The notes under the pieces: model-generated
The model's input: the letters and a program-made list of their open reading frames with translations, nothing else
The model's database searches: none
What the model was told of the DNA's origin: nothing
Position numbers and translations under genes: made by a program
Assembly: GCA_040285855.1 (NCBI GenBank)
Contig: JAUFOQ010000002.1
Location: 620,001-684,000, forward strand
Length of the DNA stretch: 64,000 bases
Direction of reading: 5' to 3'
From: Eukaryota sp. GEM-RC1
Taxonomy: Eukaryota
Shown here: positions 1,771-61,124 of the stretch, piece after piece
How positions within the stretch are numbered: position 1 is the first letter of the stretch
Layout of the letters: each line of letters opens with the position of its first letter

Positions 1771-2012
1771 ATTCCAAGTTTGGTGTGAAGTCTTTTGTCC
1801 AAAACGTGGTACTTGTCTTAGTATTGTTTGTTTGTTCTTACAAAATCACATTTTGTAGGAAGGTTACCTTTTGGCTATCGAAGAAAGTTGTGTTTAGTTG
1901 AGGCTGTAATGATTGATAAAGTATAGCATTGGTGTAGAATAAATGAGATTGGATGACGTGATATAACAACTATACATCATAGTTAAGACCAAGAGAGAAC
2001 TCAAATCCAATT
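1771..2012. repeat. ~240-bp dispersed repeat, copy 1
   Basis: Direct near-identical copy at 2703-2940; partial inverted copy at ~33105-33166. Confidence 0.85.
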
Positions 2013-2402
2013 TTGATAGGTGTTTACAAAAATACTAACCTTGTTGCAATCCACATACTACAATGTAGTATCTGGACATAAACAATACACCAAAAAGGAA
2101 GGAACTAAAAACAATACGAAATCAATTTCTAACACTAGGTATTATAAAGATTCTATCTGTAAGAGTAGTGAGGAAGTCAACAATGTTCTTTTTTTAATTT
2201 GATCTGTCTAAAAGGACCATATTTCACCGACTTGGGCGAATCGGGGGAAGATATCGAACACACCCGATTGTAATGGAATTTCCCCTTTTTATATTTACAC
2301 TAACATATGGTTGAATTGTAGTTTGTTCAGACTTTTAAATTAGAAATAGAAGACAGTATGTGTTCCAATTGTTCATTGAAAAATATGTTCAAAGCGTTGG
2401 GA

Positions 2403-2715
2403 ATAAATTTACAGTAAATATCGATAGTATTTACTAAATACTGTTAAAAAATATGAATAATGGTTTTACGTTATGAATTCACAAAATACAAACTACTAGT
2501 GCTTAAAAGAGTCTTGCGCCAAAGAGTCTGATTAAAATTTTTCCTTTGATCACGGCACAATTTTGAAAAAGCATAAAAAAACATATATCCAGGAAATGTA
2601 CGATGAGAATTTTTTTATCAAGATGTACCACTAGCACAAGGCTTACATATGTAGTACAGTACAATGTACATCTTCTGTGGTTGAACTTTCTACATATTCT
2701 TTTTCCAAGTTTGGT
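2403..2715 (-). repeat. Orphan copy of the sequence downstream of Fanzor copy 1 (candidate element end/omegaRNA)
   Basis: Aligns with 3335-3630; 74-nt core 2501-2574 vs 3421-3494 differs at 2 positions. Confidence 0.75.
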
Positions 2716-2940
2716 GTGAAGTTTAATGTCCAAAACGTATTCTTAGTATTATTTGTTTGTTCTCACAAAATCACATTTTATAGGAAGGTTACCTTTTTCG
2801 GTATCGAATAAAGTTGTGTTTAGTTGATGCTGTAATGATTGATAAAGTATAGCATTGGTGTAGAATAAATGACATCAGATGATGTGATATAACAACTATA
2901 CATCATAGTTATTAAGACCAACAGAGAAATCAAATGCAAT
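2703..2940. repeat. ~240-bp dispersed repeat, copy 2
   Basis: Matches 1771-2012. Confidence 0.85.
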
Positions 2941-2942
2941 AA

Positions 2943-3335
2943 TATGTTCGCTAATTTTTTAATCGATTTGAAGGACAGTTCTTCAGTTGCTTTGATCAAC
3001 CAAATTCCTCAGATTTATGGTTTGTTGTTGAATGTCATCAATGGACTACAACATTCAGACTTCAATGTTTCTTGTAGGCCTCTAATTTACCTAATGATCT
3101 TCAATGTAAATGTGGTAAATCAGTTACTATTTCTCACCTTTTGAGTTGCAATCATTTCATTACTTATAGAACTTGCATTCGTGATGCTGTCAGAGATCAA
3201 ATTCATGTCATGTGTAAGTTCTACAAAATCGAATCTTTCGTTGAGCCACTGTTGCTGTCACTTGAAATCAATAATTTTAACAATAGTGATTCTGATAAGA
3301 CTTTTGGTAAAAGAAGAGCTGATGTCATACTTCCA
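2943..3335 (+). mobile_element. Fragment of RLE-type (CRE-like) non-LTR retrotransposon, cut off at KRRADVILP
   Basis: FANFLIDLK..ALINQIPQ.YGLL, SCNHFITYRTCIRDAVRD and KRRADV match 33390-34570. Confidence 0.8.
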
Positions 3336-3709
3336 TAAATTTGCCGTAAATACTTTTAAAAAATATGAATAATGGTTGTACGTTATTAATTAACAACATA
3401 TAAACTAATAAACTACTATTGCTTAAAAGAGTCTTGCGCCAAAGAGTCTGATTAATATTTTTCCGTTGATCACGGCACAATTTTGAAAAAGCATCAAAAA
3501 AAGAACAACTAGAATTTTTTTACATCAAGATGTAACACAAGGCTGACTACACGTACACGTACATGTACATGTACTAGTTGTACATTACATCTTCTATGGT
3601 TGGACATTCACATTAATTTCTCCCAACTGTGGTTTTCACATCAATTGCATAATTTAGGTCTTCCCTACAAATGATACCACCATTGATAATACTTCACAGA
3701 TCTCTACAT
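3335..3709 (-). ncRNA. Candidate omegaRNA/3' end of Fanzor copy 1 element
   Basis: Directly downstream of the Fanzor stop codon; has a second conserved copy at 2403-2715; ends sharply against LINE sequence. Confidence 0.4.
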
Positions 3710-6700
3710 TTACATGCAGACTTTCTTGCTCACACTTCTAAGAGGAGCTATATGAACTTTAGCACTACAGTCTTCTGTTGATCCTGTTCCGTTCTCTTTT
3801 GTCTTCTGTTGATCAACAGTTTTTCTGTTCATCGGACAGTTCCTTTTGTCATGACCTGTCTCATGACACATTGAACACTCTCTCAAAATCTTTGAAATCA
3901 TCTTCTTTTCTTTCTTCTTCTTAGAACAAGATCTAGAATTGTGACCGACTTCGCCGCAGTTTGTGCATTTTCTTTTCTTCTTAATCGCCATTCCGTTCTC
4001 GAATTCATTTGTTTGAGATTTTTCTCTCTCAAGAACGGAAGGTCTACTTCTACCTTGGATTGCTGCTTCAATAATACTGTGAATGTTGATACCAGAGTTA
4101 AAGTCTCTGTTCCAGTATGTTTCACACGTGGCGCATCGCACTAAGCCCCATGGTGAAACCTTTGCTTCCTGGAGTTTGCTTTTTAATCCATCCTTTTCTT
4201 TTTCCCATTCATATTTAAAGTTTCTCTGATCTTTACCCAACAGTAATTTTTGGTTATACTCAACAACCTCTTTCTGAAGTTTCTTCTTTTTACGATTTAA
4301 CTTAATTTTCCAATTAGGGTCTCGGACTTTGTCATCTTTTAGGTTCGAGCAAAAGCCTTCTGTTCCAAGCAATGTGCAACTCGAACAGCATTTGCTAGTT
4401 CGATACTCATCGACTAGAAAAACTTGGTATCCGAATTTTCGGAAAAGTTCCCTCATAGATTTGCCTTTTACAAATGATCGTTTTCCAGTTCGTTTGGCTT
4501 TTCTAGAATCAATCCAATCACCAAAACCAATAATTACTTCTCCTGGTGATCCGAACTTTTGAGCAAAACGATGAAGCATATTTTGCTGACTCCTCTGATT
4601 GTTCAAGTATCTCTTCAGTCTCTGGCGTCGGAAAGACTTTTCTTCGTAAAATGTGCCTATCATAGCCCCATAAGCTTCTGTTTCTGTCAGATACAAACTG
4701 TACTTATCTACAAAGTACTTCTATTCTTTTGGTTACCCCGCAGAAGTGGTTGCGGGGTAACCAAAATGACGTAACCAAAAGGGTACTTACTTATCTGGGG
4801 TAACCGAATTTACCTGGCCAGAGGATACTCTGGAGCTGAAATTATCAGCAATTTCCTTGCCAGTCATGTGACGACCATTTACTGTGGTTGTGAATTTCAG
4901 AAGCTTTGAGGTTTCATCGTCAGGCTCTCTGACTTGCTCATTTGGTTGCTTGTTCTTTTTCTTTTTCTTGATAAATCTGCCTCTCTGGTCAGCAGTTCGT
5001 TCACCAGCTGTGTACCGGAAAATTTTCCAGCTGTGGCTTTTTTCAATTTAACTTTGGTGATTTCTTTTTTTCTTTTTGTCTCTTCTTTGAGTCTTTTCTT
5101 CTCTTTTTTGAGTCTCTTCTTCTCTTTTTGTATCCCCCCTTTCTTTTTGCAATTAATTTGTGAAAGCTGTTTAGATCGAGTCTTATTTGACAGGTCAAAT
5201 CCCTCTTGAATTTTTTCGCTCTCAGTTTTCGGACTAACACAAAAGATTAAATCGTGTTGGTTAGGATCAATTGCTACGATTTTTTTTGCCTGTGAGATTT
5301 AATTTAGTAATTTCTTCCGTTGTCAGAGAGTCCACATAGCGCTCTTCTGCAGCCAAGTCATTTGCTGAAAGATTTTTTCTAGGATTTCCATGAGAGTCCA
5401 ACAAATCCTTTCTTGTCATGAGCAGGGAAGTAGAAACACCATCCGTTGTAATAGAGGTAAAAGCAAAGTCATAAGATAGGGAAGTTGGAACTGATTTTGG
5501 TTTAAGAACAGTATTCCATAATTCCTTCCTTATTGTATCCATTTCTCCCTTGAGATCTGGTAAGAATCTCAATTGAAACCAGTTAGAGTCCAGTCTCACG
5601 TGACCAGGAATTAGTGATGACGTCACTGGAAAGGGATTGGTGACGGAGACATTATCACAGAATTCCTCAATCAGTCTGTTCAGATAGATTGCATGTGAAA
5701 GGAACTTAAGAGGGTTTACTTTTTAAGCATAGTATAATCCCTTTGGCATTTTCTTGTTTAATTGACATGTCAAGTAAGTCCTAAAAGCAATAGTTAACCT
5801 AGAATTGGTGTGAAAAATAGTTTGATCCTAAAAATCAATTAAATCAATTTGTCCGTTGACAATCAACTCTCGGATGCTGTTAAGCCGCTGAAAAAATAGT
5901 TTTCGTTCATCTTCACACTCAATTTTCATGGCTCTAGATTTTTTCTCTGTTACTAAGTTGAAGACTCGAAAGACATAGGAGTGAAAGTGTTTTGCCATAT
6001 TATTCTTGTAACTGGTGGAGATCTCAGTGGCCATGTAATCAAGTAGTCTGGGTAAGTACAAATTACTGGGGAATTTTACCATTTGCTTACCAGCAACTAT
6101 AGCAGCAGCGTTCAAAAGAGGAAGGAACTTAGTGAGTAGATGATTAATAAGTCGAATTTTAAGCAGATTCAAAGAATTGGATTTTTTTGCGACCTTTTTC
6201 AGGTCTTCTTGGCGTTCAAGGACAATCTGGCTCAAATGGTCAGATGAGCCGTCCTTTTGATCGTCATCAAAGATAACAAAACCTTCAGAGGTTTCTGATC
6301 CAGAATTTTCGAGTAATTTGGCAAATTACAATGTGTTCCCATAGAATCTTTAAATTTCAAATATTCACAGTCAAATTCGTGAATCAAAAAATGTTTTAGG
6401 AAGTGAGTTCCTCGAACTCTAACGTGGTGACTTCTTTTCACACACGATTCGATAACTTTGATTTTTGATTTTGTCACAACTTTGGTGAGTCTTCTTTTAA
6501 TCACCTTCATTGGAGATTTTTCTCTGATTTTCTGCTTGTTTCCATCAAACAAGTCACAAGCAATGAATTTTAACAGATGCAGGCGATCAATTGCATTTTG
6601 GAGTAAACGGGGTATTGTTGATGAAGCCTTCCAAAGGTCATTGATTGTTTTTAGTTCACTAGAACTTGTTAACCTAAACAATTGCTTTGCAGATAGTGCA

Positions 6701-7518
6701 GAAACATTATTTTCCGCTTTGAAATTAGCGATAGCTTCATCAATATTATACAGAGGATTGGTTAGAATTCGTATTAATTCGGAATTTTTCCAATTTTTTT
6801 GATCATGTTCCAACATAATTTGAGTTACGTTTTCCAAAAAGCGACCACCTTTAAATTTGTACAAGGATTTGCAAACTGAGTTTAAATCCAGGCAGTGAAA
6901 TGGACCAAAAGAGGACGTTTTGCACCATCTCTTAAACCATGTGGGTACATATGGAGTATATCCGTCAAATTGAAAATTAACATCAATCATCAAATGGTTG
7001 CATCTTGAAATCAAAAATGGAAAAGTGAACTTGTCACAGTTATATCCAATCAAAAGCTGTGGACGCATAGCTTTGAGAAATTCAATCAGATTAATCAGCA
7101 TCAATGTTTCTGAACTAAATCCATTGATAGAACAATCTTGAATATATAGTTCATGGCAACCCCAAGTAAAGAGATAAGTGTCGCCTTGACACCCAAGAGA
7201 CGAGCAAAATTCCATTGATACAGAAACAATGGAATCGTTACTTCCATCATAGGAAAACTCGTGTATTAGGTCTTTCACTTGTGGCCCTTGACAGTCTTCA
7301 TCATCACTGTCATGTTCCTCAGCGACCTCTGGATTGAGGCGATGGTCTTCAGAGATAATAGCTCTGATTTCCATAAAGCAAAATAATTTATCCAATGTCT
7401 GGATGTTTTGTGCTTTCAATGGAGTTGGAGATAGTTCCATTGAAAGGCGTTTCACACCTCTCATTGGATGAGGAGAAACAGGACCTCTAGCGCAGTTCAC
7501 TGACGGAAAGGGATTCAT
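3710..7518 (-). pseudogene. Decayed Fanzor1-like nuclease with N-terminal PolB exonuclease-like domain and two C-terminal CCHC knuckles
   Basis: RuvC motifs IVAIDPNQHD (D 5266-5268), FGDW, VDEYRTSKCCSSC (E 4406-4408), CATC..WNRDFNS (D 4103-4105). Collinear with 53990-57800. In-frame stops at 5828-5830 and 5723-5725, frameshifts near 6255, 5280 and 5040, and an 87-bp insertion at 4701-4796. Confidence 0.88.
4701..4796. mobile_element. 87-bp palindromic insertion with 9-bp direct repeat TACTTATCT
   Basis: Direct repeat at 4701-4709 and 4788-4796; internal 16-bp inverted repeat TTTTGGTTACCCCGCA/TGCGGGGTAACCAAAA; removing it restores ...SVTPDKYSLYLTETE... Confidence 0.75.
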
Positions 7519-8546
7519 GAAACCAAGAATAGTCGGTGTCGGTAATGTGATTGATTTGTTCTTACTTTCCCCTCCATTGGATTCCGTTTCGTGATTTATA
7601 GTTCAATTTGATTTTGGAATGTTTTCCTTCATACTAATACTACAGTACAGTAAAACTTCTTCTAGTTCTTACACTCCTTTTCTTCTTGTTTTCTTCTTGT
7701 TATACCTTGTTGTACCTTGACTGTCCTTATAACTTTGTGTACTTTCAAGGACATTCTTGAAGCATTTGTCATAAATAAGCCACCTGCTGATGACTGAAAC
7801 TACTATTAATGTCTACCAAACACTTCTTTATCAAGTTGAAGATCTTCTCAATTCACATGAACATATCTTCTCAAAATTAACAACCCTGACCATTTGTCAC
7901 TCTCGCTGCTTTCCATAAAATACAGACCAAAATTCCGTAATGTTCCTCCTGACTTCTCCTTCCGTTTCTTCTTCTTAGTTCCTGTAGCTTCTCTTCATGT
8001 AGCTTATGTTTGAATCTCTTTCTCCCTCCGCGTTCACATCTCTTCCTCTCCTATTATATATATCGTATAAAACACAGTAATAAGGTCTTTTTATTTCGAA
8101 TCGTCCATAAACACTAAGCTAGAGGCATATGATGTTCTAGTGGTGGTGAATTTTTTTGAACACCACTCTTCCCGGGTTTTACGGGAAGAGATCGAATATC
8201 TTCGTGTGAAAGAAGAAGATCCCAAGTCAAACCCATTGCGATGTATAAAAAATCTTCAGGAACGGAAGAGAAGGCGAGGGAGATGAGGGAAGATGTTAGG
8301 TCTAAAATTGTACTGTAAAGGTCTAAAATGCGGATCAGACCTAGAGCTGGGCACAGACTGACTAGACTAGACTAAGACTACAACAACTGACTACCGACTA
8401 GACTACAGACTACACCAATAGACTATAGACTAGACTAAGACTACACCACCAGACTACGGACTAGACTAAGACGAGAGAAATACACTAAATAGTAGACTAA
8501 ATAGTTTTGTCCAAACATGAATTATAACAAGAAATTCTACTGAAAT

Positions 8547-9486
8547 TATAGATGGGAGCCGGCTCAAAATTTGATCACGGCTCAGCCGCAGGCATCAGCC
8601 AGCCGGCTGCGGCTTACAACACATTTTAGTTAGCTAAAGCCGGCTGAAGCCGGCTCATCCTCATCGAGTTTTGTTTCGAGTATTAAGGCTAACTGCTTAA
8701 AAGTGTTATTGACTTGTTGGTTGATATATCAGTAAAATGATACAGAACCATTGTTAATGACAACTACACCGAGTATCAAAACGACACAATACTGATATTG
8801 ATATCATTGATCAGTACATTCCAGTTTTCACAGATTTTACATGTCACTTATTTTTGTGGTTATCACTTATAAACTTGACGTTGATCAGTTAGATATTACG
8901 GAAATCTGTGAAACAACCGTAACACCACTATGGAATTGGTTGTCTGTCTAAAATAAGAAAACAGTATAGTAGTACTTTTGAGAAGGAGCTGAATTGGTCC
9001 TAAAGAAACACAGTCGTTGGCAGAAGATCTCTGACGGACTCCAGGTTTTTTATGTCTAAGAACACATATATATCCATTTTATATGGACGTAAAAGATGTA
9101 ATAAACATATCAAGTTTCAGAAATAGACACTGCGACAATGTACATAAGGCACTGAATGTACTATCAGTGCCCCCAAGAAAAACATTAGGGCAATTATTCG
9201 ACACAAATCAACTATATTCACCAATTCCATTGTTGCTCGAACGTTGATAAACATTAGTAGCCCTAAACTGTTCTGATAAGCGCTGTACATGATTATGTTC
9301 GATTTCTAAATAAATTAGTCGTTCTTTATTGGCTCTGTTTTCAGAGAACTTAAAATATTCGGCTTTGAGCCGGCTGAAACTATTTTTAGCCAGCCGGCTT
9401 GCAGATGGAAATATTTCTATTCTGGACCAGTCGGCTGGCTCGGTTAGCCGGCTAAGCCGGCTAAATTGAGCCGGCTCCCATCTCTA
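8547..9486. mobile_element. hAT-type MITE nested in the hAT element
   Basis: TIR TA(T/G)AGATGGGAGCCGGCTCAA; 8-bp TSD ACTGAAAT (8539-8546, 9487-9494); subterminal AGCCGGCT palindromes. Confidence 0.92.
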
Positions 9487-9501
9487 ACTGAAATACATGT
9501 A

Positions 9502-10149
9502 CTAGAAGTCGAATACCTCGAAGCCACCATCAGCCCAAGATTTTAAACAAACAAGCGCTCTCGGCGTTTCAGCTTCCATAGAAGCTCTTCGTAGAGCAAT
9601 TGTCTGACCTGCAAGAGAAAACAGTCGTTCACATGCCACGGATGTTCCTTGGCAACTAAGGAAATCCCTGGCAAGTCTTGCAAGTGTAGCAAATGTTGAT
9701 TCATTGCTCTTCCACCAAAGCAAAACGTCAGTTTTCCAACAGACATTGGGGTAACTCATATAGGTTTCCAATTCTGCGCTTTGGTTAGGCCTTTCCGACT
9801 GTTCCTGTGTTTCAAGAAATCCTTCACTATCAGATGATACAACAACAACATCAGATTCAGCTTTGTAATAAGTATCAATAACGATGTCCAGCATTTCTTT
9901 GAAATCCCGCGGAGTATCAAATCGATGTAGGTTAGCCAGCCTACATCTTGGATCCAAAACTGCACAGCCATATGCAGAAAAGTCATAAACATCACCTAGG
10001 TACTTAAGCAATACAGTTTCAATTTTGCTACATGCATTGGATAACCACTTATACATGTTGTGTGCATCGTCTGAATCCTGTAGAGAAAATCTGGGCAGTT
10101 TCTCAGGAGGTTCAGTCAATTGTGTTAAAAATAGTAGACTAATGATCAC
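9502..10149 (-). pseudogene. hAT transposase C-terminal (dimerisation domain) remnant
   Basis: AVLDPR, LLWWKSNESTFATLARLARDFLSCQGTSVACERLFS, LVCLKSW. Confidence 0.9.
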
Positions 10150-10356
10150 ACTAATTTATTGTGAACAGACTACAGACTAGACTACAGACTTAATGATCAG
10201 ACTACAGACTAGACTAAGACTAAGTGAGTAGACTAAGATTTAGACTAAAAGCTTAGTCTAGTCCGTAGTCAGTAGACTAGTCTAGTCGAATGCCCAGCTC
10301 TAATCAGACCTTTATGCAGTGAAATTACAAACCTCAAAACATTTATATTCTTCTTC

Positions 10357-11546
10357 ATGGGCTTATCTAACGATTCTCAAATCAAATGGTCTACCAGTCG
10401 TGACATCCAAGTTTTCCCCACCTTTCAGTCCATGAACCTTTCAGAAGATCTTCTTCGTGGAATTTTTGCCCTTGAAATACGTCGTCCTTCAGCTATCCAA
10501 CAACGTGCTCTTGTCCCTATTCTTAAATCTCGTCACGTCATTGCTCAAGCTCAATCAGGAACTGGTAAAACCACAATGTTTTCTATTGCGTCTCTTCAAT
10601 TGGTAGAAAAGTCTTCAAACGAACCTCAAGTCATCATTCTCTCTCCCACACGTGAACTTGCCCATCAAATCCATGATTCAGTAATTTCTTTTCCGATTTC
10701 ATGCATGTCTCTGCTGTTTGTCTCCGTGGAGGACAATCAATGAAGGAAGACTTCAAGAAGCTCGATAATGGATCTCAAGTCGTATCTGGAACTCCAGGAC
10801 GTGTTCTTGACATGATCTCTAAGGGAGTTTTAAGAACCCGTCATATTTCCACTTTAATTATTGACGAAGCTGACGAGATGTTAGAGCATGGCTTCAGAGC
10901 AAACTTAGACGATATCTTTAGAACCCTCCCTCCCTCTGTTCAAGTTGTTTTAGTTTCAGCTACACTTCCACCTGATGTTCTTGAGGTTTCTGAAAACTAT
11001 ATGAAAGATCCAGTCAAGATTCTAGTGAAAAGAGATGAACTTACATTAGACTTCATCCGTCAGTTCTATGTATCAGTTGAGAAGGAAGAGTGGAAGTTCG
11101 ACACTCTCTGTGATTTGTACGAGTCAATGGCAATCACCCAAGCAGTGATCTTTGTAAACTCGAGAAAGAAAGCCGATTGGCTTAGCTCTAGGCTTGGTGA
11201 GAGTAACTTTATTGTGGGAAGTATCAGAGGTGGTGGAGATGTTAAACAACAAGCTCGTGATGATGTGATGAAGAAGTTTAGAAGTGGGGAATTACGTGTT
11301 TTGATTGCTACTGATGTTATTGCTAGAGGTATTGATGTGTCTCAAGTGTCGCTGGTTATTAACTATGACGTTCCCTCATCACGTGAGACTTACCTTCACA
11401 GAATAGGAAGGTCTGGTCGTTTCGGTCGGAAGGGATTGGCTATCAACTTTGCAAAGGACGAGGATTTGTCATTGTTAAAGGATATTGAACAATTCTATGG
11501 GTGTACTGTTGATGAGTTACCATCAGATGTGTCGTCTCTTATTTAA
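10357..11546 (+). CDS. EIF4A3: DEAD-box helicase eIF4A-III
   Basis: [57 protein letters not shown]; one T missing in a run near 10690 joins the two ORFs. Confidence 0.88.
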
Positions 11547-31589: not shown

Positions 31590-31990
31590 TTTTCTTTTTT
31601 TTTAAATAACAAGTTTTATTGACAACAACACTACAGTGTACATACATCTAATAATCAATATCCTCAAAGTCCAGATTGCCTAACTGGAAATTTTCACCCA
31701 CCTTATCCTCATAATGTCTGCCAAGAGATAATAAAGCGCTAGATACAGAAGTCACCATACTTTTAAAGATAGCAAACACGATTCGATTTTTCCAAAATCT
31801 AAGATCAAATGTCCTAGATGTTTTTTCCTTTACAAACTTCACAAAGATTTCAAGTAATTATGTTGCAGATTCACCTAAAGAACCGTACAGTGAAAATACA
31901 AAAGGGTACAACAAGTAATTCGAGTGTGAAGCCGAATTCAATAATTTCAATTTAGCACAGTATTATTGCATTTTTCCGTTTTCTACATAC
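31590..31990 (-). mobile_element. 3' end of RLE non-LTR retrotransposon with A-rich tail
   Basis: PFVFSLYGSLG, FDLRFWKNRIVFAIFK; AATAAA followed by an A-run; inverted copy at 34655-34800. Confidence 0.8.
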
Positions 31991-32639
31991 CAAGTTTAGA
32001 TCGAGATTTCTACAAAAGAGCAACAACCTATAGACCAGGTTTAAGTAAAGCTTTTTCCCATGTTTGAGCACAGTATATCAAATAGAACTTAAACGGAAAT
32101 TGTAAAAATTCATTTTCAGAAATTTAATTGTATGGTCTTTACTTAAAAAAAAATTAGGAGAAGGCTAGAGTGATGCTTTGAAAGTCAAATGCAAAGTTAA
32201 TTTTAGTCATACTGTATGATTGTAGTGAGTGGAGATGAAGGTGTCTAATATATTGTTACTGAACCGTGTGAACTTCAACACGAATGTGTTGTCAGCGTTT
32301 TGACCAACAAAACAATGCATGGGTCCGTTTTTCCCACCAAAACACTCTGCGTTATCCTACTCAATCAAACAAAATTGAAAACTGTACACACAATTTACCG
32401 AAAGAAGTTAAAAGTTATTTCGCAAATGGTGGAAACGGAAAAAATAATGTCCAAAAATCCACATTCAGACAGTTAAATGACAGTGACTTGTATTTTTTTT
32501 CATGTTTTTGGAAATTGACCTTGAATTACAGGAATCAAAATTAGTGAAATCCATGAAATTCTCTGACAAGATAACCAAGGACCAAAAAAATCAAGACATT
32601 TTTAATAATTGATTTCATAGCCCAATACATGAAGATTAT

Positions 32640-33050
32640 ATATAACCATACATTTTCCAGTGAATATCTTTGAGGTTTGGGGTTTACATCTTCTAAATTG
32701 TGGGCTAAAACAGCCTTCATTGGTGGTGGAAAGAATTTTGTATTCGAGTTTTGTAATCGATATCCATCAAGAACTTCTCTACTTGAAAGTACTTGCAGCT
32801 TTTATCCTGTCTCCGTGGTGAAATAGGAAATCTTTCTCCTGAGTTTTGGTCATCCTGCTGTCCTGTTGATATCAAAGAAATTCCATGTCGAAATATTGTG
32901 TCCTTAAAATTTGCTTCAAAGAAGCTATATTAAAATATTTTGAAAGTTTAGATCATACAGTCCATCGTAGCTCGGCTAAGGAAAATAATCCAGTTTAGCT
33001 AATTGTTTAATTGATTTAAAGGAGAGTTCTGCTGTGGTATTAATTCATCA
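32640..33050 (+). mobile_element. Degenerate retrotransposon fragment
   Basis: Inverted match to 34160-34570. Confidence 0.8.
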
Positions 33051-33389
33051 AATTATTATCAAATGATGACCAAAATATATAAATAAAACTTATTCGGTAC
33101 CCAATACGGTAACCTTCCTACAAAACTATCCTTCAAGTTGCAAAAACAGACGAATAATACTAAGATTAAATCCAAACGACTTTATTATTTTATTGTATTT
33201 GTTTGTGTCTAAGTCTGGACATCAAGTTGCTGCATTGAATTCACGAAGACACAATAAAATCGTCTTTCAGCTTATTGCAGTTTCTATGTGTGCAAATTTC
33301 GGTTCTTCTACCAAGGAGTTTTTTGAAAATTTGTGTTCAGAATTTTTTTATGCAAATTGGTTTTATTATAAATGTAATAGATCAAACAA

Positions 33390-34570
33390 CTAAAATTTGA
33401 TATCATTAAAACAACACCCGTCGCTATCAAACCTTACAACAGCTTTGTCCTCATAAAAGGTACTCACTGTTAAAAAAGCTTTGGAAATGATTAGGGGAAC
33501 TGTTTTAAAAACAGTAAAAACGATCCGATTCAACCATAGCATATGATCAAAACGTTTGTTCATCCTGTTTTTTAAGATTTTTCCGAAATCGTTTAAGAAA
33601 ATCAATGCACTTTTTCCTAAGCGTCCGTAAATTGAAACAGCAAAAGGACATAATTGGTATTCAACGTGTTTTACATGTTTTAAAGCCATCAAAGGTTTCT
33701 TGTACTTATCCTGTTTGGCCTGTTCAGAAATGTCTAAAGGAGAAGTTTCAGACGAAGCGTTCTTTAAAGATGTCTTTTTACAAACATCCACTGACACTAC
33801 ATCAACAACAAACAATTTGTCTAAAGAAGAAGGGACAACAACATCTGCTCTTCTTTTACCAAAAAAATTCTTCTGTTTCTCGACATTACAATTATTACTT
33901 GGTTCTAAAGATCTTAGAAGTGGTTCAACAAATGACTCAATTTTATAAGACTTACACATAGCATGTATTTGGTCTCTTATAGCATCATGTATACACGTTC
34001 GATAAGTTATGTAGCGATTGCAACTTAACAAATGAGAAAACGTTAATTGTTGTCAACAGCTACATTGAAGATCATTTGGCAAATTATATGGCCATAAATA
34101 ACAACGAAGTCTCATTGTAGTGGTCCATAGATGATTTAATAACAAACCATATACTTGTGGAATTTGATTAATTAATGCCACAGCAGAACTCTCCTTTAAA
34201 TCAATTAAAAAATTAGCAAAAGCTGGATTTTTTTCCTTAGCCGAGCTAAGACGGACTGTAAAATCTAAACTTTCAAAATATTTTGATAAATGATTTTGTA
34301 ACTTTTTTAAAGCAAACTTTAAAGACAAAATGTTTCGACATGGAATTTCTTTGATATCAACAGGAAAGCAAGTTGACCATAGCTCAGGAGAAAGATTTCC
34401 AATTTCATCACGGAGATTATTAAGATAAAAGCTGCTACACTTGTAGTAATTTCAAGAAGAGAAGTTCTTGATGGATATCGATTACAAAACTCAAATACAA
34501 CATTCTTTCCACCACCAATAAAAGCTGCTTTAGTCCACCATTTAGAAGATGTAAATCCCAAACCTCCAAA
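33390..34570 (-). mobile_element. 5'-truncated RLE-type (CRE-like) non-LTR retrotransposon: Zn knuckle plus restriction-like endonuclease
   Basis: CSC..HLLSC, RTCIHDAIRD, RADV..VVDV, EQAKQDKY, PFAVSIYGRLG. Confidence 0.85.
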
Positions 34571-34654
34571 TCAGAATTTGGCAAGAAGTTTAACAGATCG
34601 TACTGGAAGACTAAATTTGCTTTTTCGATTTTTAGGTATATGTATAGATATGTG

Positions 34655-34800
34655 TAGCGCTTTATTATCTCTTGGCAGACTTTATGAGGTTAAGGTAGGT
34701 GAGAATTTCCAGTTAGGCAATCTGGAATTTGAGGATATTGATTATTAGATGTATGTACACTGTAGTGTTGTTGTCAATAAAACTTGTCAATTAAAAAAAA
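34655..34800 (+). mobile_element. Severely 5'-truncated retrotransposon 3' end with poly(A)
   Basis: Near-identical reverse complement of 31595-31742. Confidence 0.8.
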
Positions 34801-34862
34801 AGAATTGACAAATTGGAGGTTTAACGCAGAATAAGAGATTTAACTTATCAATTAGGCATAAC

Positions 34863-53734: not shown

Positions 53735-53989
53735 ACAAGATTCTAAAGACTCTTTAGTATCGAGGGAAATGTTAGCCTTCTCTTTAGTTAAAAGAAGGCT
53801 AAGATGTCCTTTATATTCCAATTATTTTCAACTAAATTATTGTTTACTATTTTTTTCTTTATGCTTCTACTACTGTGAATTTCATTCCAAATGCATAAGG
53901 GCATAACCCTTCAGCATTTTCATGAGATAAACCACAGTTGACAAAGTCCTCATTCGCAAAGTCTTTTAAAACGAGCTAACTTCATAGAT
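53735..53989 (-). ncRNA. Candidate omegaRNA of Fanzor copy 2
   Basis: Three stem-loops (53743-53757, 53772-53802, 53889-53919) just downstream of the Fanzor stop codon; boundaries unknown. Confidence 0.45.
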
Positions 53990-56900
53990 TCAAGATTCCT
54001 GATCTTTCTGGTTTACGTGTGAGTCCTTGGGTACATCTTTCTTAGGCTTATTTGGACAAGTTGTTTTGTTATGTCCAGGTTGAGAACATATACGACACTT
54101 GTTAGGACCTCTGACAGTTGTTGGAGGACGTTTTGCCTTACCCTTACCCTTACTCACAGTCTTTTTCTTAGGAATCTGATCTGTATTCCCGCCATCCACG
54201 ACAGGTGTTGTTTGAGATTTTGGTCTCTCGAGGATGGCAGGTCTACCTTGACCTTGAATGGTTCCATTTACAATATTGTAAATATTGATAGCAGAATTGA
54301 AGTCTCTATTCCAGAGGACATGACATTTAGCACATTCAACTAAGCCCCATGGTGAGACTTTGTTGTTCTTCAATCTTTCTTTCGAAAATGGCAACTGGTC
54401 AGTCCATTCTTCATCAAAGTTACGCTCCACAATATTGTCTAAGTGATTGTGTTCCATAATTTCCTTTTTTAATTCTTTCTCTTCCTTCTGTAACTTCTTC
54501 TTCCAATGAGGATCAGTGACTTTTATCCTTTCAGGATTGGAACAGATACCTTCGTCGTTTGTGGAAACACATGCAGAGCAACATTTGCTGGTCTTAAATT
54601 CATCAACTAGGAACACTTTAAATCCAAATTTTCTCAATAATTTCCGAATTGAAGCACCTTTTACAGTCGATGCTTTACCTCTTCTTCGACGAAAAGCAGT
54701 GTCGTTCCAGTCTCCATACCCAACAACGACTTCATCTGGGTTTCCAAACTGGAGAGCAAATCTGTGAAGCATGTTTTTCTCACTTCGTTCCTTTCTTGAA
54801 TACTGTGTGAGACGATTCCGTCTAAACCACTTTTCTTCGTAAATTCCTTCTGTAGTTCTTTGATCAGTAGTGGGTGATCGTAGTAAAGAACAGGTAATTT
54901 CTTTACCAAGAACAAAAGCAGAATACTGAGTCAATTCACAAGATTTACTACCTGGCGAGTTAGAGCCCCATTGATCTAAAATTTGTTGCCCATTTATGTC
55001 AATGCGTCTGCCATCTGGAATGTGAATAAATTGGGTAGAGTATTGTTGTAACCGTTCAGATTCAGATAAACGGTGGAGATTATATCGTCTTATTTTCTTC
55101 TCCAGCTTCCTCTTCTTTCTCTTAGCTCTTTTTCTTTCCTTCCTTGTTTTTTTCTTTTTCCATGGAGACTTTTTAATATCGGCATTGCGTTCCCCAGCAG
55201 TGTATCTGAATACTTTCCAATTGTCTCGATTTTTCAACTTGACAGTTGATGGTTTGTCAATAGTGGGTGCGTCTTTCCAATCCTTCAATTCCTTTTTTAA
55301 TTTTTTCAAGCTTCCTTTTTTCTTTGACGATTTTGGACAAATCTTTCTTCTTCTGAGATTGGCTGATGTATCGAAACCTTCGATTTCCTTTTCCTCCTTA
55401 GATTTTAAAGAAGCACAATACATCAAATCATGCTGATTAGGATCAATAGCAACAATTCTTTTTGATTTCAAATTTAAGTTTTGAATTTCTGTGGAACTCA
55501 AAGAATCAATGTACCTTTCAGTAGCTGTGTAGTCAACAGCTTTCACCTTCTTATGAGGATTTCCTTTCCCATCAAGCAGATCTTTCCGCATCATTATTAA
55601 ACTACAACTAACTCCATCTGTAGAAATAGAACTGTATTTGAAGTCATGAGACAATGACTTTGGAAGACACTTTGGTTTCAAAACTGAGTGCCAAATATCT
55701 TTTCGAACGTCATCAAAGCTTCCTTTAATTTCTGATGCATAAACTTCTTTAAACCATGTAGTATCCAATCTGATATGATTAGGAATCAATGATTTTGTTA
55801 GAGGAAAAGGATTATTGGCAGTAACACCAGGACAAGAGTCTTCAACAAGACGTTTCAAATACACTGCATGACTTAAGAATTTCAAAGGATCTACTTTTTC
55901 AGCATAATAGATTGATTTCTCCATTTTACCTTCAAAAAAAGTAAACAAATAGTTAAAAAATAGTAAACTCAGTCTAGACTTGGGATCAGGAAACACTTCA
56001 ACATCTTGAAAATTAATTTTTGAAACTTCCCCATTAATGATCAACTGTCTGATTTCATTAAGCTTTGTACACAACTCTTGTCGTTGATTCTTATCACTAA
56101 GCTTGTTAAGTCTATCTTTTTCAGGGTAACCAAATTAAATACTTGAAAAACATATTCGTGAAAGTGTTCACACATGTTGGTCTTGTAATTTGTAATAATT
56201 TCTGTTCCCATGTAATGCAATATACGAGATAAACGATGACTACTGGGAAACACAATCCTATCAAGTCCAACGGAATCAGCAGCTAGTTCTAAACGAGGAA
56301 TGTAATGCATCAAGAAGTGTTGAGCAAACTGATTTTGAGTTGAGCCATCATTTGTGTTAGAAATTATGTTTTCTAAAGATTCTTGTACAGTCCTAATATG
56401 ATTCTGATTGTTTACAAGTTTGTAGTCCCTAATCGTCATCATAGACAACACTTGTTCCATTGATTTCAACGTAAAAAAATTGTTCCAGTCTGACAATTCA
56501 ATTTTGTAAGTTTGAATTCTAGTCCAAAGGTCAGGTTCAGGTTCACCACTCGCATCTTCAATATTTTCTAATTTAATAGGAGGAGTAGCAGCATCGATAG
56601 ACTCTGAATGTACATCTGTTTCTTCTTCAGTTGACTCATCTGTATCAGAATTCATTTCTTCCTTAACAGTTACATTTGGAACAGTAGCAGGCAGTAACTT
56701 CTGAATGTAACCTAAAATACCTGAATGTTGAAAATTATGAACAAAAAAATGTTTCAAAAGAGAGAACCACGGACTCTTACTTGATGAGCTCTCTTAACAC
56801 GAGATTCAATAAATTTAACCTTCGCTTTGGATACAACATTGTCTAGTCGTTTCTTAACCACTTTCATTGGTGACTTTGAACGTAATGTTTGCTTTTTGGG

Positions 56901-59033
56901 ATCCAATAGGTCAGCCAACAAGTATTCAATCAGAGGTAATTGTTGAATTGAGTTCATCAACAATAGCGGTCTTGTCGATTCCTTGGCCCAAAGTTCATTT
57001 ACTTTCTCCAAATTTTTTACAAATTTCTTTTTAATCTTATCGACCTTCACTTTGGGATTGTCTGGAACTAAAACATTAATACTGTCAATTATGCCATGCA
57101 AGTTTTGGACATTATTGACCAATTGAACTTCATCAGGATCAGAGTCATGATTAAGATCTTCCAAGCGTTTGACAGTTTCATTTTTAGAAAAATTATTCAT
57201 TTCAAGAAAAATTTGAACAACATTTTCCAAAAAACGGCCACCAGTAAAGACATAAAAATTCTTCAGTACAGCATTCAAATCAAGACTAAAAAACGGACCA
57301 AAAGTTGTTTCCTTACACCATTTGTTGAACCAAAAGGGAATGTAGGGTTTAAATTCTGGAAAAGTAAACGTTGTATTGATTTTGAGGACTTGACAACGTG
57401 ATACAAGAAAGGGAAATGTATCTAAGTGAAAGTCATAACTCACAAACAATCGTGGACAATGTTGAGTAATGAAGGAAATGAAGTTTTTAAGCATACTGGA
57501 TTCACTATCTGAAATATGTAAAGTACACAAATCCAAGTTTGTAGTATCAAAATTGCCATGAGAAAATAAATGCTTTTCATTAAACTCATTGTGATCAATG
57601 ATCTGGATGGAAATTGATACAATCGGATCAACAGAAGAATCACGTTTAACTTCTAATTGATCTTCAGCTTCACCTTCAACAGTTTCAATGTCATCATCAT
57701 CTTGAACAAGTTGAACATTTTTGCCATTAATTCTTTCTGAATTGTCAAAATCACTTTGAACGTCAATCAAACAAAAAGCTGGAAGATTATTCCAAAGTAG
57801 AGGGGATTTAAGAAAGTCTTGAATTTGTATTTCTTGTTCGATAGGCTCAGTGTGTAGATTTACTTCCATTTTATGGATTTCTTCTTGAATTGGTGATGGA
57901 TACGACATAATGGAGGCATGTGATTTTGGTGGTAGTTCAGATGGTGGTACTTCAGATGGTGATGGAGCTAATTCAGATGATGGTACTTCAGATGATTCCA
58001 ATGTGGACATACGGCGGTGAGTCTTTCGTATTGGAGTGTCACCAGTTGAAACAAGGGAGCTGGTAGTTCTAAATTTATTTCGTTGAATTAAAGGTGAACC
58101 TCGTGGTGATGGAATATCAGAAATTTTGGGCTTACTTTTTTTAGTGCTAAAACCAGTAGATGTTTTAGTGCTAGCAAGACGTGAACCTGTGAGAGGAATT
58201 GAAGTGGTTGGATGTTCTTTACCGGCAGGAGGTTGAATGGGTAACGATGGTTCAATAGGAGCTACTGTGGTTTGACGTTGTTGTAGATAAAGTGTCCTTT
58301 GTTGAGACAATACATCCCGAATTTTTTCACGAAATATGTCTGCTTGAAGTTCATTGTTCACTTGGACCAAATAAGTTTCCAAATACATCAGAGACGGAAC
58401 ATACGTGAGTCTTTTAAAAAGTTCAACATATTTTTGAATATACGCAATGACATAAACTCCACAGTCGTTAGCAGACTGTGTTTTAGTCACAGGCACATAA
58501 CGGAAAACATACCCCCATGGCACAAGTACTTCGGATAATATGTCTACAGCTGATTTTACCATAGACTTACTCATATCTTCGCTAGTTAACATTGGATCAA
58601 TGAAGATCCAATCCTTTTCAGAACAGTCTATAATGGCTAAACCCCAATGATAACCAGTGACACCTTCTCTGGAATAATTAGCATTTCTAGTCATGGTATC
58701 ACTAAGGGGAACAAAGAGATATTTGGAGTTTGTTCTTTGATTTCGCTGAATTTTCGTCAACAACCATTGATCTAGCGGGGCATCTGGTGAAACAATATAT
58801 TGAAGCAATGTGGTCGGATGGATAAACATGCTTTCAAAGTCTAACTCTGCTTCTTGAAATATCACTTTACAGTACTCCACTATCGCTTCGTCATCAACCC
58901 ATTGATGAGGATAAACTGAGTTTATGGCTTCTTGAGTTACGGGTCCTGGATTGGATTCAATATCACCATCAGCGGTGAGGTCTTTTGGGAACGGAGGATG
59001 GGAAGGGATAAACAGGGGAGACGAGTACTTCAT
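53990..59033 (-). CDS. Giant multidomain Fanzor1-like protein: 2A - Ulp1 protease - degenerate PolB exonuclease - Fanzor - CCHC knuckle (~1,680 aa)
   Basis: IVAIDPNQHD (D 55442-55444), YGDW, VDEFKTSKCCSAC (E 54599-54601), CAKC..WNRDFNSAINI (D 54302-54304), CRICSQPGHNKTTC. Adding one base to homopolymers near 56757 and 56118 joins three ORFs and restores alignment with copy 1; no in-frame stops. Confidence 0.88.
58941..58964 (-). other. 2A-like ribosomal skip (StopGo) motif DIESNPG-P
   Basis: KDLTADGDIESNPGP exactly matches D(V/I)ExNPGP. Confidence 0.85.
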
Positions 59034-59070
59034 GGCAACAAATGTATGTGTTGATAAAACACAGAATGAA

Positions 59071-59443
59071 CTGTCCTTATCTAAACTCAACTGAGCCCGA
59101 AACCGTGCAATGGAAACAGTCACAAGTTGAGTCAGATAAGGACAGGATGGCGGCATTATCGAAGCAACAGAAGTGGAGGCAGTGGAGGGAAAGAACTGTC
59201 CTTATCTAAACTCAACTGAGCCCGAAACCGTGCAATGGAAACAGTCACAAGTTGAGTCAGATAAGGACAGAATGGCGGCATCATCACAGCAACGGCAGTG
59301 GGGAAAGCAACGGCATTCATCACAGCAACGGCAGTAGAGGGAGAAGCAACGGCAGTGGAGGGAAAGAACTGTCCTTATCTAAACTCAACTGAGCCCGAAA
59401 CCGTGCAATGGAAACAGTCACAAGTTGAGTCAGATAAGGACAG
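59071..59443. repeat. Three identical 75-nt hairpins
   Basis: Units at 59071-59145, 59196-59270 and 59369-59443; stems CTGTCCTTATCT/AGATAAGGACAG and ACTCAACT/AGTTGAGT; linkers built of GCAACGGCAGTGG-like repeats. Confidence 0.93.
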
Positions 59444-59598
59444 GATGGCGGACAACATCTGTTTGGATGCAGAACAAACGACATTTATACTGTAGGAGGA
59501 AGGAAAATGAAATCCCACACAGACTGTAATGGACATGTGTGTGTGAATTCACGTGTTAAAAAACGAAATCTGTAATAAAGTCTATACCAGAATTTCCC

Positions 59599-61124
59599 AT
59601 GTCCTACTCAATCTTCAAACTCAGAAATACTTCTGAACAAGAAAGTCGTTCCCGTACCATCAAAACATATATGAAACTTGTTGTAAAGCTTGCTGATAAG
59701 CATGCAGTTAATTTGTCACTTGTTCTTCTTCCTTATGGAACATACAATTCATGGAGAACTAAATCCATCCACATAACGGAAGTGTCAACATCTGACTTAC
59801 CAGATGATCTTAAAAAGGGTACCATGGATTTTTGCCTCAGCTACAAATCAGCCGTTGCCATTGTGCTAGATGTTGATCTAGAAACTGTTCATCTCTTTCC
59901 TTTTGATGGTTCTTATGAGAAGCGTGACATATCTCTTCCACTTCCTTCAACAACTTCAACTCTAAATCATCTTAAGGATCTACTCAAAGACGTTAAAGGA
60001 GATACAATTGCTCTTTCCCCTCCTCCTCCTCAGCCTCAATCTCCTGCTCTTTTACATGATTGTGACATTACTCGCATTGACGATACTCCATCTCAAGTCG
60101 TTTTTCCTTCACCAAAACGTCGTATTGATAACTTCGCAATCAATCATATTCATTCTATTTTCTCTGAACCATCTGAAATAGTTCCTGTTCCAGTCAGTGA
60201 TAATGCTAATTTATCTAAACCTATGAAACGCAAAAAACAACGTAACCCGTTGATTCTTTCTGTAGATTTAATCAGTGATCAGTTTTACATAAATTCAAAA
60301 TTAAAATTTGAATTTAGTGATATTGAGAAAATGTTGACAAAGGATGATAGGGAAGGTAAAACACAACTCTTGTTGAGTTCTGAACTTGATTTCATTGTGA
60401 TGCTTGCATTCCAAAAATTTAAATCAAGTAGGTACAAGTTCCTGCAATCTCAAGAAACTCAACAGTTGGTTGGTGATCCAATATGCTATGCCTTACATTC
60501 TGGTAAGGCTATTGTCGATACACTAAAATCAGGAAAAGAATTCTTGCCCCATTATGTTTGGTGAAAGAACATGTTCCTGGTGATGCAGGATCTGGTCATT
60601 GGATTCTTATTGAATTGTTTCTTAATGAAGCAAATGTTTTATTATTCAATATTTATGATTCTTTGGATTATTCATTAACCACAGAATTAATCGTTAATCC
60701 TTTTAGAACTGTTTATGGATGTGGGGAAACAAATCTGTTTGCAAGATTACCAGAGTATAAGGTGGACTACTATATACCTTTTGCACAGTCAACATCGTCT
60801 CTTATCTGTGGATGGATTGTCTGTTTGAATGTTACTTTAATTTTACAAGGATTAATGGTTGATGCACGTCAGGAACAAAATCAGACAAAATTATACACTA
60901 ACAGATCAAGAAAAAATCTATGTCTTGTTATGTATGATCTACTTCAGAGTGTACAACCTGATTTGGTGACAGAACAAAATGTAATTGATGGTTCAACAAC
61001 AAAATTTGATAACAAATCGTTGAAGACAGAAGACGAAAATGAAGTTTTAGGGAAAAAAACAGGAAAACGAAGAATTAAAACCACTGCAAGTGCTTTTGGA
61101 ATCAAAAAGACTTTAAAAAAATGA
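59599..61124 (+). CDS. Ulp1/SENP (C48)-like cysteine protease
   Basis: One T added near 60545 gives FFAPLCL...GHWILIEL...IYDSL...AQS...ICGWIVC. Confidence 0.7.

What the first reader, a model, noticed from the sequence alone, without database searches (positions are those of the whole stretch)
58941..59033. 2A-like StopGo peptide at the N-terminus of a Fanzor
Seen: gccATG at 59033 opens MKYSSPLFIPSHPPFPKDLTADGDIESNPG|P directly before the protease domain. Established: D(V/I)ExNPGP causes co-translational skipping in RNA viruses and occurs at the N-terminus of some non-LTR retrotransposon ORFs. Inference: a ~30-aa leader is released, leaving a Pro-initiated nuclease polyprotein, which could control stability, localisation or translation. 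Copy 1 shows no such motif.
Basis: partly seen in the sequence, partly recalled or inferred. Interest (0 to 1): 0.82.

Follow-up and report, generated by a model that had tools for sequence, protein, structure and literature searches.

The report
Virus-type 2A peptide heads Fanzor polyprotein
A multicopy gene of a free-living anaerobic protist, likely part of a DNA transposon, carries an RNA-virus-type ribosome-skipping (2A) sequence right in front of a protease that is likely fused to an RNA-guided Fanzor nuclease, and the 2A likely cuts off a variable leader encoded by upstream repeats so that the enzyme starts at a fixed proline.

Summary
The motif is real: ATG 59033(-) gives MKYSS...KDLTADGDIESNPG|P, chance expectation 3e-5 in the window. 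It is a class-A, motif-4 (DLTxDG) StopGo peptide, 13 of 14 residues identical to an iflavirus 2A reported at about 99% skipping. It sits at the edge of a SENP8/NEDP1-like protease, followed by a linker, a likely dead PolB exonuclease-like domain and a Fanzor1 with intact D-E-D, across two 1-nt frame breaks. Of 112 family proteins, 51 carry it directly before the protease, from three Skoliomonas-named genomes. Across nine subtypes the 14-mer is 71-93% identical, the protease 19-40% and the leader about 6%. The 2A travels with the protease; copy 1 and another Fanzor subfamily lack both. Best reading: ribosomes translate through the repeats and the 2A discards that leader. Skipping, expression and start site are untested. 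I found no paper on 2A in Fanzors or DNA transposons. The scan noted a 2A-OTU Helitron on other DNA before (e1-8595353, unchecked).

The parts
58941..58985 (-). StopGo/2A peptide KDLTADGDIESNPG|P (class A, upstream motif 4); predicted skip between G (58946-58944) and P (58943-58941)
   Evidence: Sequence; motif class from PMC12846837; conservation
58986..59033 (-). Short leader from ATG 59033. The aromatic residue at -16 (F15) is kept as F or W in 8 of 9 subtypes; the Met is not conserved
59064..59474 (-). Three copies of a 113-nt repeat, each a long hairpin (-35 to -37 kcal/mol, z -4.7 and -5.9 for the two folded). Of the three frames, only the one read into the 2A is stop-free within the unit. 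In-frame ATG at 59156
59482..59492 (-). Candidate first start codon (ATG 59484) after a pyrimidine-rich stretch and tataa. The 197-aa leader of sister protein P0011 starts at the matching Met and tiles onto 59484-58935 with two frame slips
58266..58943 (-). Clan CE (C48/Ulp1) cysteine protease, closest fold NEDD8 protease NEDP1/SENP8; H129, D146 and C191 present; begins at the 2A proline
   Evidence: Pfam PF02902; alignment; AF2 pTM 0.79; Foldseek top hit 2bkq, E 7e-9
57780..58265 (-). Ser/Thr/Pro-rich low-complexity linker
   Evidence: Translation; short repeats
56946..57779 (-). PolB 3'-5' exonuclease-like domain, likely inactive (ExoII Asp aligns to Thr); shared by all Fanzor subfamilies here that cover the region, including copy 1
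   Evidence: PF03104 aa 448-556, E 3.6e-7
53990..56945 (-). Fanzor1, with 1-nt frame breaks near 56755 (T run) and 56120 (A run); RuvC D (55444), E (54601), D (54304) present; C-terminal zinc-knuckle-like tail
   Evidence: phmmer to SpuFz1 8gkh E 2.7e-15 and PpFz1 9cf0 E 1e-10; PF07282; continuity in relatives
53860..53995 (-). Candidate omegaRNA scaffold and right end (structured 3' region); end not mapped
   Evidence: Fold z -3.0; the matching region of copy 1 does not fold above chance (z 0.06) and aligns poorly

Best explanation
A virus-type StopGo/2A peptide stands directly before a SENP8-like protease that heads a likely single protease-exonuclease-like-Fanzor1 reading frame, and it likely makes the ribosome release a variable leader, predicted to be translated from in-frame upstream repeats, so that the enzyme would begin at a fixed proline on the protease's domain edge. 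Shown: the motif, its class, its position at the fold boundary, its conservation against divergent flanks, leader variability, the hairpins in this copy, and a reading frame from 2A into the Fanzor N-terminal part in sister copies. Inferred: transcription starts upstream of the repeats; the ribosome starts at an early ATG (59484) because 35 kcal/mol hairpins would hinder scanning but not elongation; StopGo occurs on this host's ribosome; the leader peptide is a by-product; both frame breaks are long-read homopolymer errors.
For: Exact fit to motif 4 (WV(R/K)DLTx[acidic]G, D, S at p15), reported at almost 100% StopGo in reticulocyte lysate; DLTADG is labelled Motif-4 in that paper's dataset. 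13 of 14 residues match the Perina nuda and Ectropis obliqua virus 2A DLTQDGDIESNPGP, listed at about 99%. 51 of 112 family proteins carry a 2A-like end directly before the protease; 48 of the 51 keep the strict core and 40 keep motif 4 plus core. Over 36 pairs of 9 subtypes: 14-mer 71-93% (mean 82), protease 19-40% (mean 27), upstream window mean 6%. Changes fall mostly at tolerated positions (x, I/V). Present in proteins named for GEM-RC1, TZLM3-RCL and TZLM1-RC. Internal second protease domains lack it. Leaders are open tandem repeats with units of 23, 27, 27, 28, 31-35, 33, 38, 42-58 and 76 aa; a random array is open and in frame with chance 0.04-0.10. One Leu and viral-type -16/-14/-13 residues fit the clean-skipping class, not the Leu-rich 'reduction' class. 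P0014 reads without a break from 2A through protease and exonuclease-like domain into the Fanzor N-terminal part; P0157, P0083 and P0145 read on through the core.
Against: No skipping, transcript or start-site data. Motif match does not guarantee activity: 81% of cells in a viral class-A library fell in the inactive gate. The HPPFP prolines may break the helix expected at -19 to -10. Ascertainment: the phmmer query contained the 2A, the N-lobe HMM was built from the 51 2A-bearing rows, and leaders come from automated gene models that only show open repeats. In leader type A, 7 of 13 models span an in-frame array and 6, including the window's, start in the last repeat. Here the repeat spacings are 173 and 125, one short of a multiple of three. 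Identical 2A peptides on unlike proteases partly reflect module swapping (P0004, P0031, P0160 are mosaics). The second frame break is shared by all 4 same-subfamily proteins that reach it (P0008, P0010, P0014, P0017), so it may be real; no single full-length protein over 1329 aa was found (weak evidence). For the most distant 2A-proteases (P0042, P0066, P0054, P0060) linkage to a Fanzor was not shown. Hairpins were shown only for this leader type.
Confidence: 0.6

Rival explanations
1. The 2A works, but on a short leader: transcription starts just after the last hairpin, translation starts at 59033, and the purpose is to give a Pro N-terminus or to pause and ration a toxic protease-nuclease.
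For: ATG 59033 has gccATG context and lies 31 nt downstream of the last repeat copy, which ends at 59064. N-terminal 2As in non-LTR elements sit 40-80 aa from the start, and most tested retrotransposon 2As reduce protein output.
Against: The Met is absent in other leader types; the nearest Met lies 28-137 aa upstream. The peptide has one Leu, unlike the 3-6 Leu reduction class. It does not explain why unrelated repeats stay open in the 2A frame.
Confidence: 0.17
2. The leader is itself a product (a signal-like, membrane or Cys-rich peptide), and the 2A makes two proteins from one message or splits targeting.
For: Several leaders end in a hydrophobic stretch (best 11-aa Kyte-Doolittle mean 2.2-2.7 in P0007, P0029, P0055, P0057). 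The repeat units of leader types A and B share 13 of 30 residues. Unchecked earlier notes describe signal-plus-2A leaders.
Against: Leaders are unrelated between most subtypes (mean 6% identity) and vary in repeat number. The window's type scores only 1.5. The A/B identity clusters at the positions of the hairpin arms, so it may be kept at the DNA level.
Confidence: 0.12
3. The motif does not skip here: it is a relic captured from an RNA virus or retroelement and spread by recombination between copies, or it serves as a structural cap of the protease.
For: Mosaic copies show module swapping at or near the junction. Decayed cores exist (3 of 51: P0038, P0045, P0067). No test in a metamonad was found among the 12 titles listed.
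Against: Kept over protease branches of 0.6-1.8 changes per site and in three named genomes, with changes mostly at tolerated sites. Cellular SENP8-like proteins and internal protease copies lack it, and the model leaves it unfolded.
Confidence: 0.11

Closest known systems
Class A viral StopGo peptides with upstream motif 4 (DLTxDG), e.g. Perina nuda and Ectropis obliqua iflavirus 2A (PMC12846837: four of seven text parts and supplement rows read; PMC2885027 and PMC8623073: passages; PMC12338488: passages and supplement rows)
   Same: Core D(V/I)ExNPGP, G at p11, S at p15, (R/K)DLTxD upstream, aromatic residue at -16; 13 of 14 residues identical to the iflavirus peptide.
   Different: Lies in a chromosomal multicopy gene with no RdRp or RT; F-P instead of W-V upstream; N-terminal position.
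N-terminal 2A-like peptides of APE-type non-LTR retrotransposons (L1Tc, Ingi, CR1, Crack, L2; PMC3708506 passages), including ORF2p forms that also carry Josephin or OTU deubiquitinase domains (bioRxiv 10.64898/2026.06.17.732966, sections 5, 12, 13, 16 read)
   Same: 2A near the N-terminus of a mobile-element enzyme; a ubiquitin-like protease in the same polyprotein in some lineages.
   Different: No RT or APE domain here; payload is a Fanzor1; the peptide is viral-type, not Leu-rich; the protease is clan CE.
Fanzor1 (SpuFz1 8gkh, PpFz1 9cf0; PMC10530073 passages)
   Same: RuvC D-E-D, zinc finger, structured 3' region, many copies.
   Different: About 700 extra N-terminal residues (protease, linker, exonuclease-like domain) plus 2A; no such fusion in the passages seen; no transposase or ends identified.
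SENP8/NEDP1/DEN1 deneddylase and Ulp1-type proteases carried by DNA transposons
   Same: Fold and H-D-C triad. Ulp1 cargo in transposons is known (search listing; details recalled).
   Different: The short N-terminal segment of the cellular enzymes is replaced by the 2A; substrate unknown; some subtypes carry two protease domains.

Membership tests
Class A StopGo/2A peptide | Core D(V/I)ExNPG|P | tested here: met
   DIESNPGP; 48 of 51 family copies keep it
Class A StopGo/2A peptide | Supporting upstream motif (motif 4, DLTx[acidic]G) | tested here: met
   KDLTADG; labelled Motif-4 in the PMC12846837 dataset; 40 of 51 copies
Class A StopGo/2A peptide | In frame with a downstream protein, at a domain boundary | tested here: met
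   ORF; AF2 fold starts at about aa 31; alignment to cellular proteases
Class A StopGo/2A peptide | Co-translational skipping of the Gly-Pro bond | not testable with these tools
   Needs a reporter or proteomics. The peptide's core string was not in the supplements held for PMC13405545, and occurred once, unclassified and untested, in PMC12338488
Fanzor1 | TnpB-like RuvC with D-E-D and similarity to solved Fanzor1 | tested here: met
Fanzor1 | One reading frame from 2A to RuvC | tested here: inconclusive
   Two 1-nt breaks in the window. The first is absent in P0014, P0025, P0008, P0017; the second is present in those of this subfamily that reach it but absent in sister subfamilies
Fanzor1 | omegaRNA at the right end | tested here: inconclusive
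   3' region folds, z -3.0; no meaningful Rfam match; weak likeness to copy 1
Fanzor1 | RNA-guided DNA cleavage with a TAM | not testable with these tools
   Biochemistry needed
DNA transposon (any named superfamily) | Transposase, defined ends, target-site duplication | tested here: inconclusive
   Multicopy on many contigs, but no transposase domain in the ORFs scanned next to copy 2, no terminal repeat found, and no genome was held to compare flanks
C48/Ulp1 (SENP8-like) protease | Clan CE fold with His-Asp-Cys triad | tested here: met
C48/Ulp1 (SENP8-like) protease | NEDD8, SUMO or ubiquitin specificity | not testable with these tools
   18-20% identity to NEDP1 does not fix the substrate
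APE-type non-LTR retrotransposon with 2A | APE endonuclease and reverse transcriptase downstream of the 2A | tested here: not met
   Pfam finds C48, PolB exo and TNB only

The most novel reading that the evidence does not exclude
Skoliomonad mobile elements use a virus-derived 2A as a translate-through-and-discard device. Freely exchangeable repeat or hairpin arrays sit inside the message and are held in frame and stop-free so that elongating ribosomes can cross them. The 2A throws the resulting peptide away and launches a deneddylase-like protease fused to an RNA-guided Fanzor nuclease, a virus-style polyprotein that could both disarm host ubiquitin-like defences and cut DNA.
Probability: 0.35. 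Interest if true: 0.85.

Novelty: new variant of a known kind. Interest (0 to 1): 0.66.

Why it matters
Natural StopGo is described in RNA viruses, retroelements and a few cellular genes. My searches found no report in a Fanzor or a DNA transposon, and none in metamonads. The purpose of N-terminal 2As in mobile elements is an open question. This family is a natural experiment: dozens of copies, at least nine leader types, exonuclease-Fanzor subfamilies with and without the cassette, and three host genomes. It also shows a Fanzor architecture of about 1,700 aa with a ubiquitin-like protease and a polymerase-derived domain, which was not in the Fanzor passages read.

Tried and rejected
No genome was held, so copies could be compared only as predicted proteins: no dN/dS, flanks or ends. 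No sequencing run was listed, which is no evidence on expression. A search for longer proteins found none at E 0.001 among 4580 candidates (weak). Pattern scans with the 2A-protease alignment gave 26 viral and 26 metagenome loci; the protease HMM hit 0 of 52, so they share the 2A only. A ribozyme in the repeats (as in L1Tc, recalled): Rfam gave 4 sub-threshold chance matches and none in the repeats. An intron at 56780 to join the frames: rejected, because relatives read straight through. Self-cleavage at di-Gly: no conserved GG or GxG in the linkers of 7 proteins. A protease tree (21 rows) separates the GEM-RC1 proteases from cellular ones but leaves P0054 among the cellular rows on a long branch, so a single origin is not shown; P0060 was left out as truncated. 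The + strand ORF as a second C48 protease: not supported. The protein atlas did not answer. bioRxiv supplements of 10.64898/2026.09.24.754024 were not seen and could hold similar peptides. The held supplements of PMC13405545 (4 files) may not be complete.

Full report
Observation. The - strand from 59033 to 58941 reads MKYSSPLFIPSHPPFPKDLTADGDIESNPGP. It is the only NPGP in the six frames of the window. The expectation from the window's own residue frequencies is 3.1e-5 for the core and 6e-12 with the DLTxDG hexamer. The frame is open upstream to a stop at 59204 and holds another ATG at 59156, so 59033 is a candidate start, not the only one.

What follows the motif. Pfam finds a C48/Ulp1 protease (aa 98-204, E 1.3e-5) and a PolB exonuclease domain (aa 448-556, E 3.6e-7) in this ORF, and TNB in the downstream frame. 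An AlphaFold model of aa 1-260 (pTM 0.79) leaves aa 1-27 unfolded and folds from about aa 31; its best Foldseek matches are NEDD8 protease NEDP1/DEN1 (E 7e-9, 18-20% identity). H129, D146 and C191 are present. In the alignment the 2A takes the place of the short N-terminal segment of cellular SENP8-like proteins. The exonuclease-like domain has Thr where archaeal PolB has the ExoII Asp, so it is likely inactive. The downstream frame matches SpuFz1 (E 2.7e-15) and PpFz1 (E 1e-10) with the three RuvC acids in place. Two single-base breaks in homopolymer runs, near 56755 and 56120, separate the frames. A host eIF4A-like gene in the window also changes frame near 10680, which may be a similar slip or a short intron. 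The first break is absent in P0014, P0025, P0008 and P0017. The second is present in all four same-subfamily proteins that reach it, but absent in sister subfamilies such as P0083, P0157 and P0145. The named relatives come from Nanopore assemblies corrected with Illumina reads (PMC11316075, section 6 and passages). I infer one frame of about 1,700 aa with systematic homopolymer errors; an inherited break or a programmed shift at the second site is not excluded.

Class of the peptide. PMC12846837 (parts 1-4 of 7 read, plus supplement rows) defines upstream motif 4 as WV(R/K)DLTx[acidic]G before D(V/I)ExNPGP, with S at p15, and reports almost 100% StopGo for a representative in reticulocyte lysate. 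DLTADG is labelled Motif-4 in its dataset. The iflavirus peptide DLTQDGDIESNPGP differs at one of 14 positions and is listed at about 99%. Against this, a library of viral class-A peptides gave 81% of cells in the inactive gate (bioRxiv 10.64898/2026.09.24.754024, sections 27 and 31 read), and the prolines at -19 to -15 may break the helix seen in active peptides. The single Leu and the -16, -14 and -13 residues resemble viral skipping peptides, not the Leu-rich eukaryotic class that lowers output.

Conservation. Protein searches returned 7 close relatives, all named Eukaryota sp. GEM-RC1, 31 cluster members, and 33 representatives at the 50% level. Of those 33, 5 are cellular SENP8-like proteins and 4 share only 2A motifs; these 9 and the metagenome Fanzors were left out of the family count. 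Names were looked up for 27 query proteins; they also include TZLM3-RCL and TZLM1-RC. PMC11316075 names GEM-RC and TZLM3-RCL as Skoliomonas, free-living metamonads; that TZLM1-RC is a third skoliomonad is recalled. Of 112 family proteins, many of them fragments, 51 have a 2A-like end; 48 of the 51 keep the strict core and 40 keep motif 4 plus core. An HMM of the protease N-lobe, built from those 51, gave 57 family hits: the 51, and 6 without 2A, which are internal second domains, fragments or one weak off-target hit. Across nine subtypes (36 pairs) the 14-mer is 71-93% identical, the protease 19-40%, and a window upstream 6% on average. Protease branches reach 0.6-1.8 changes per site. Caveats: the phmmer query contained the 2A, and mosaic copies show that modules are swapped near the junction.

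The 2A goes with the protease. Copy 1 matches ORF1 only from aa 379 and has no protease or 2A. Six proteins of the P0145 subfamily start at the same Met about 50 aa before the exonuclease-like domain. The cassette is joined to the exonuclease-Fanzor in the window's subtype (P0014), in the two-protease subtype (P0160, P0029), and probably in P0038, whose tail matches the start of P0157. For the most distant 2A-proteases the downstream partner is unknown. None of 52 viral or metagenome loci had the protease.

The leader. Leaders are mostly open tandem repeats with unrelated units of 23 to 76 aa. In the window three 113-nt repeats lie at 59064-59474. Each forms a hairpin of -35 to -37 kcal/mol (z -4.7 and -5.9), and only the frame read into the 2A is stop-free within the unit. 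The 197-aa leader of P0011 tiles onto 59484-58935 with two frame slips, matching spacings of 173 and 125 that are each one short of the 58- and 42-aa periods of sister copies. A random array would be open and in frame with chance 0.04-0.10. Gene models favour open leaders, however, and within this type 7 of 13 models span an array while 6 start in the last repeat, so this support is moderate.

Mechanism. Most likely the message starts upstream of the repeats, the ribosome starts early and elongates through hairpins that would hinder scanning, and the 2A releases this variable peptide and restarts at the proline that begins the protease. The sequence facts are shown; transcription start, initiation site, skipping and the fate of the leader are inferred. 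I put about 0.85 on the peptide skipping at all and 0.6 on this purpose. The rivals are a short regulatory leader (0.17), a functional leader peptide (0.12) and a non-skipping relic (0.11).

Comparison and novelty. N-terminal 2As are known in APE-type non-LTR elements (PMC3708506 passages), some in proteins with deubiquitinase domains (bioRxiv 10.64898/2026.06.17.732966). Full-text searches for Fanzor with 2A peptide gave 4 unrelated papers by title and abstract. StopGo with DNA transposon gave 0. Two broader searches listed none on this topic among 18 of 18 and 20 of 194 shown, and none of the 18 contained the word Fanzor. The library lacks most subscription papers. Supplements held for PMC12338488 and PMC13405545 do not name these organisms. 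Earlier unchecked notes of this scan describe a 2A-OTU-Rep Helitron and signal-plus-2A leaders on other DNA; they agree in pattern but are not support. Verdict: a real and conserved StopGo peptide in a new setting, a new variant of a known kind, interest 0.66.

Noticed in passing
window 56946-57779 (-) and 6400-7473 (-): Both Fanzor1 copies, and the related subfamilies that cover the region, carry an N-terminal PolB exonuclease-like domain without its catalytic acids, fused to the Fanzor. Not seen in the Fanzor passages read; may deserve its own study.
   Followed up: partly
window about 56120 (-): The same A-run frame break occurs in all four same-subfamily proteins that reach it, while the downstream frame stays open for 708 codons: systematic read error, inherited break or programmed -1 shift.
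   Followed up: partly
window 59599-61124 (+): Divergent ORF pair, joined by a likely 1-nt slip near 60560, directly upstream of the repeats. It has HW and CG motifs by eye, but no Pfam hit and no profile match to the proteases. Whether it belongs to the element is unknown.
   Followed up: partly
window 8320-10330: hAT dimerisation-domain fragment (9502-10056) between GACTA-rich terminal arrays, interrupted by an insertion at about 8555-9490 with inverted ends.
   Followed up: no
window 3710-7600 (-): Copy 1 is a degraded Fanzor1 (several stops and frame breaks), with an insertion near 4730-4800 and two C-terminal zinc knuckles.
   Followed up: partly
window 10357-11546 (+): Host eIF4A-like helicase gene with a frame change near 10680: a 1-nt assembly error or a short intron.
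   Followed up: partly
proteins P0078, P0029, P0040: Some subtypes carry two tandem C48 domains; the second domain in the P0029 type has Ser in place of Cys and looks inactive.
   Followed up: no
window 31592-34804 and 1772-3501: Large nested inverted repeats and a roughly 920-bp tandem duplication of a non-coding repeat family.
   Followed up: no
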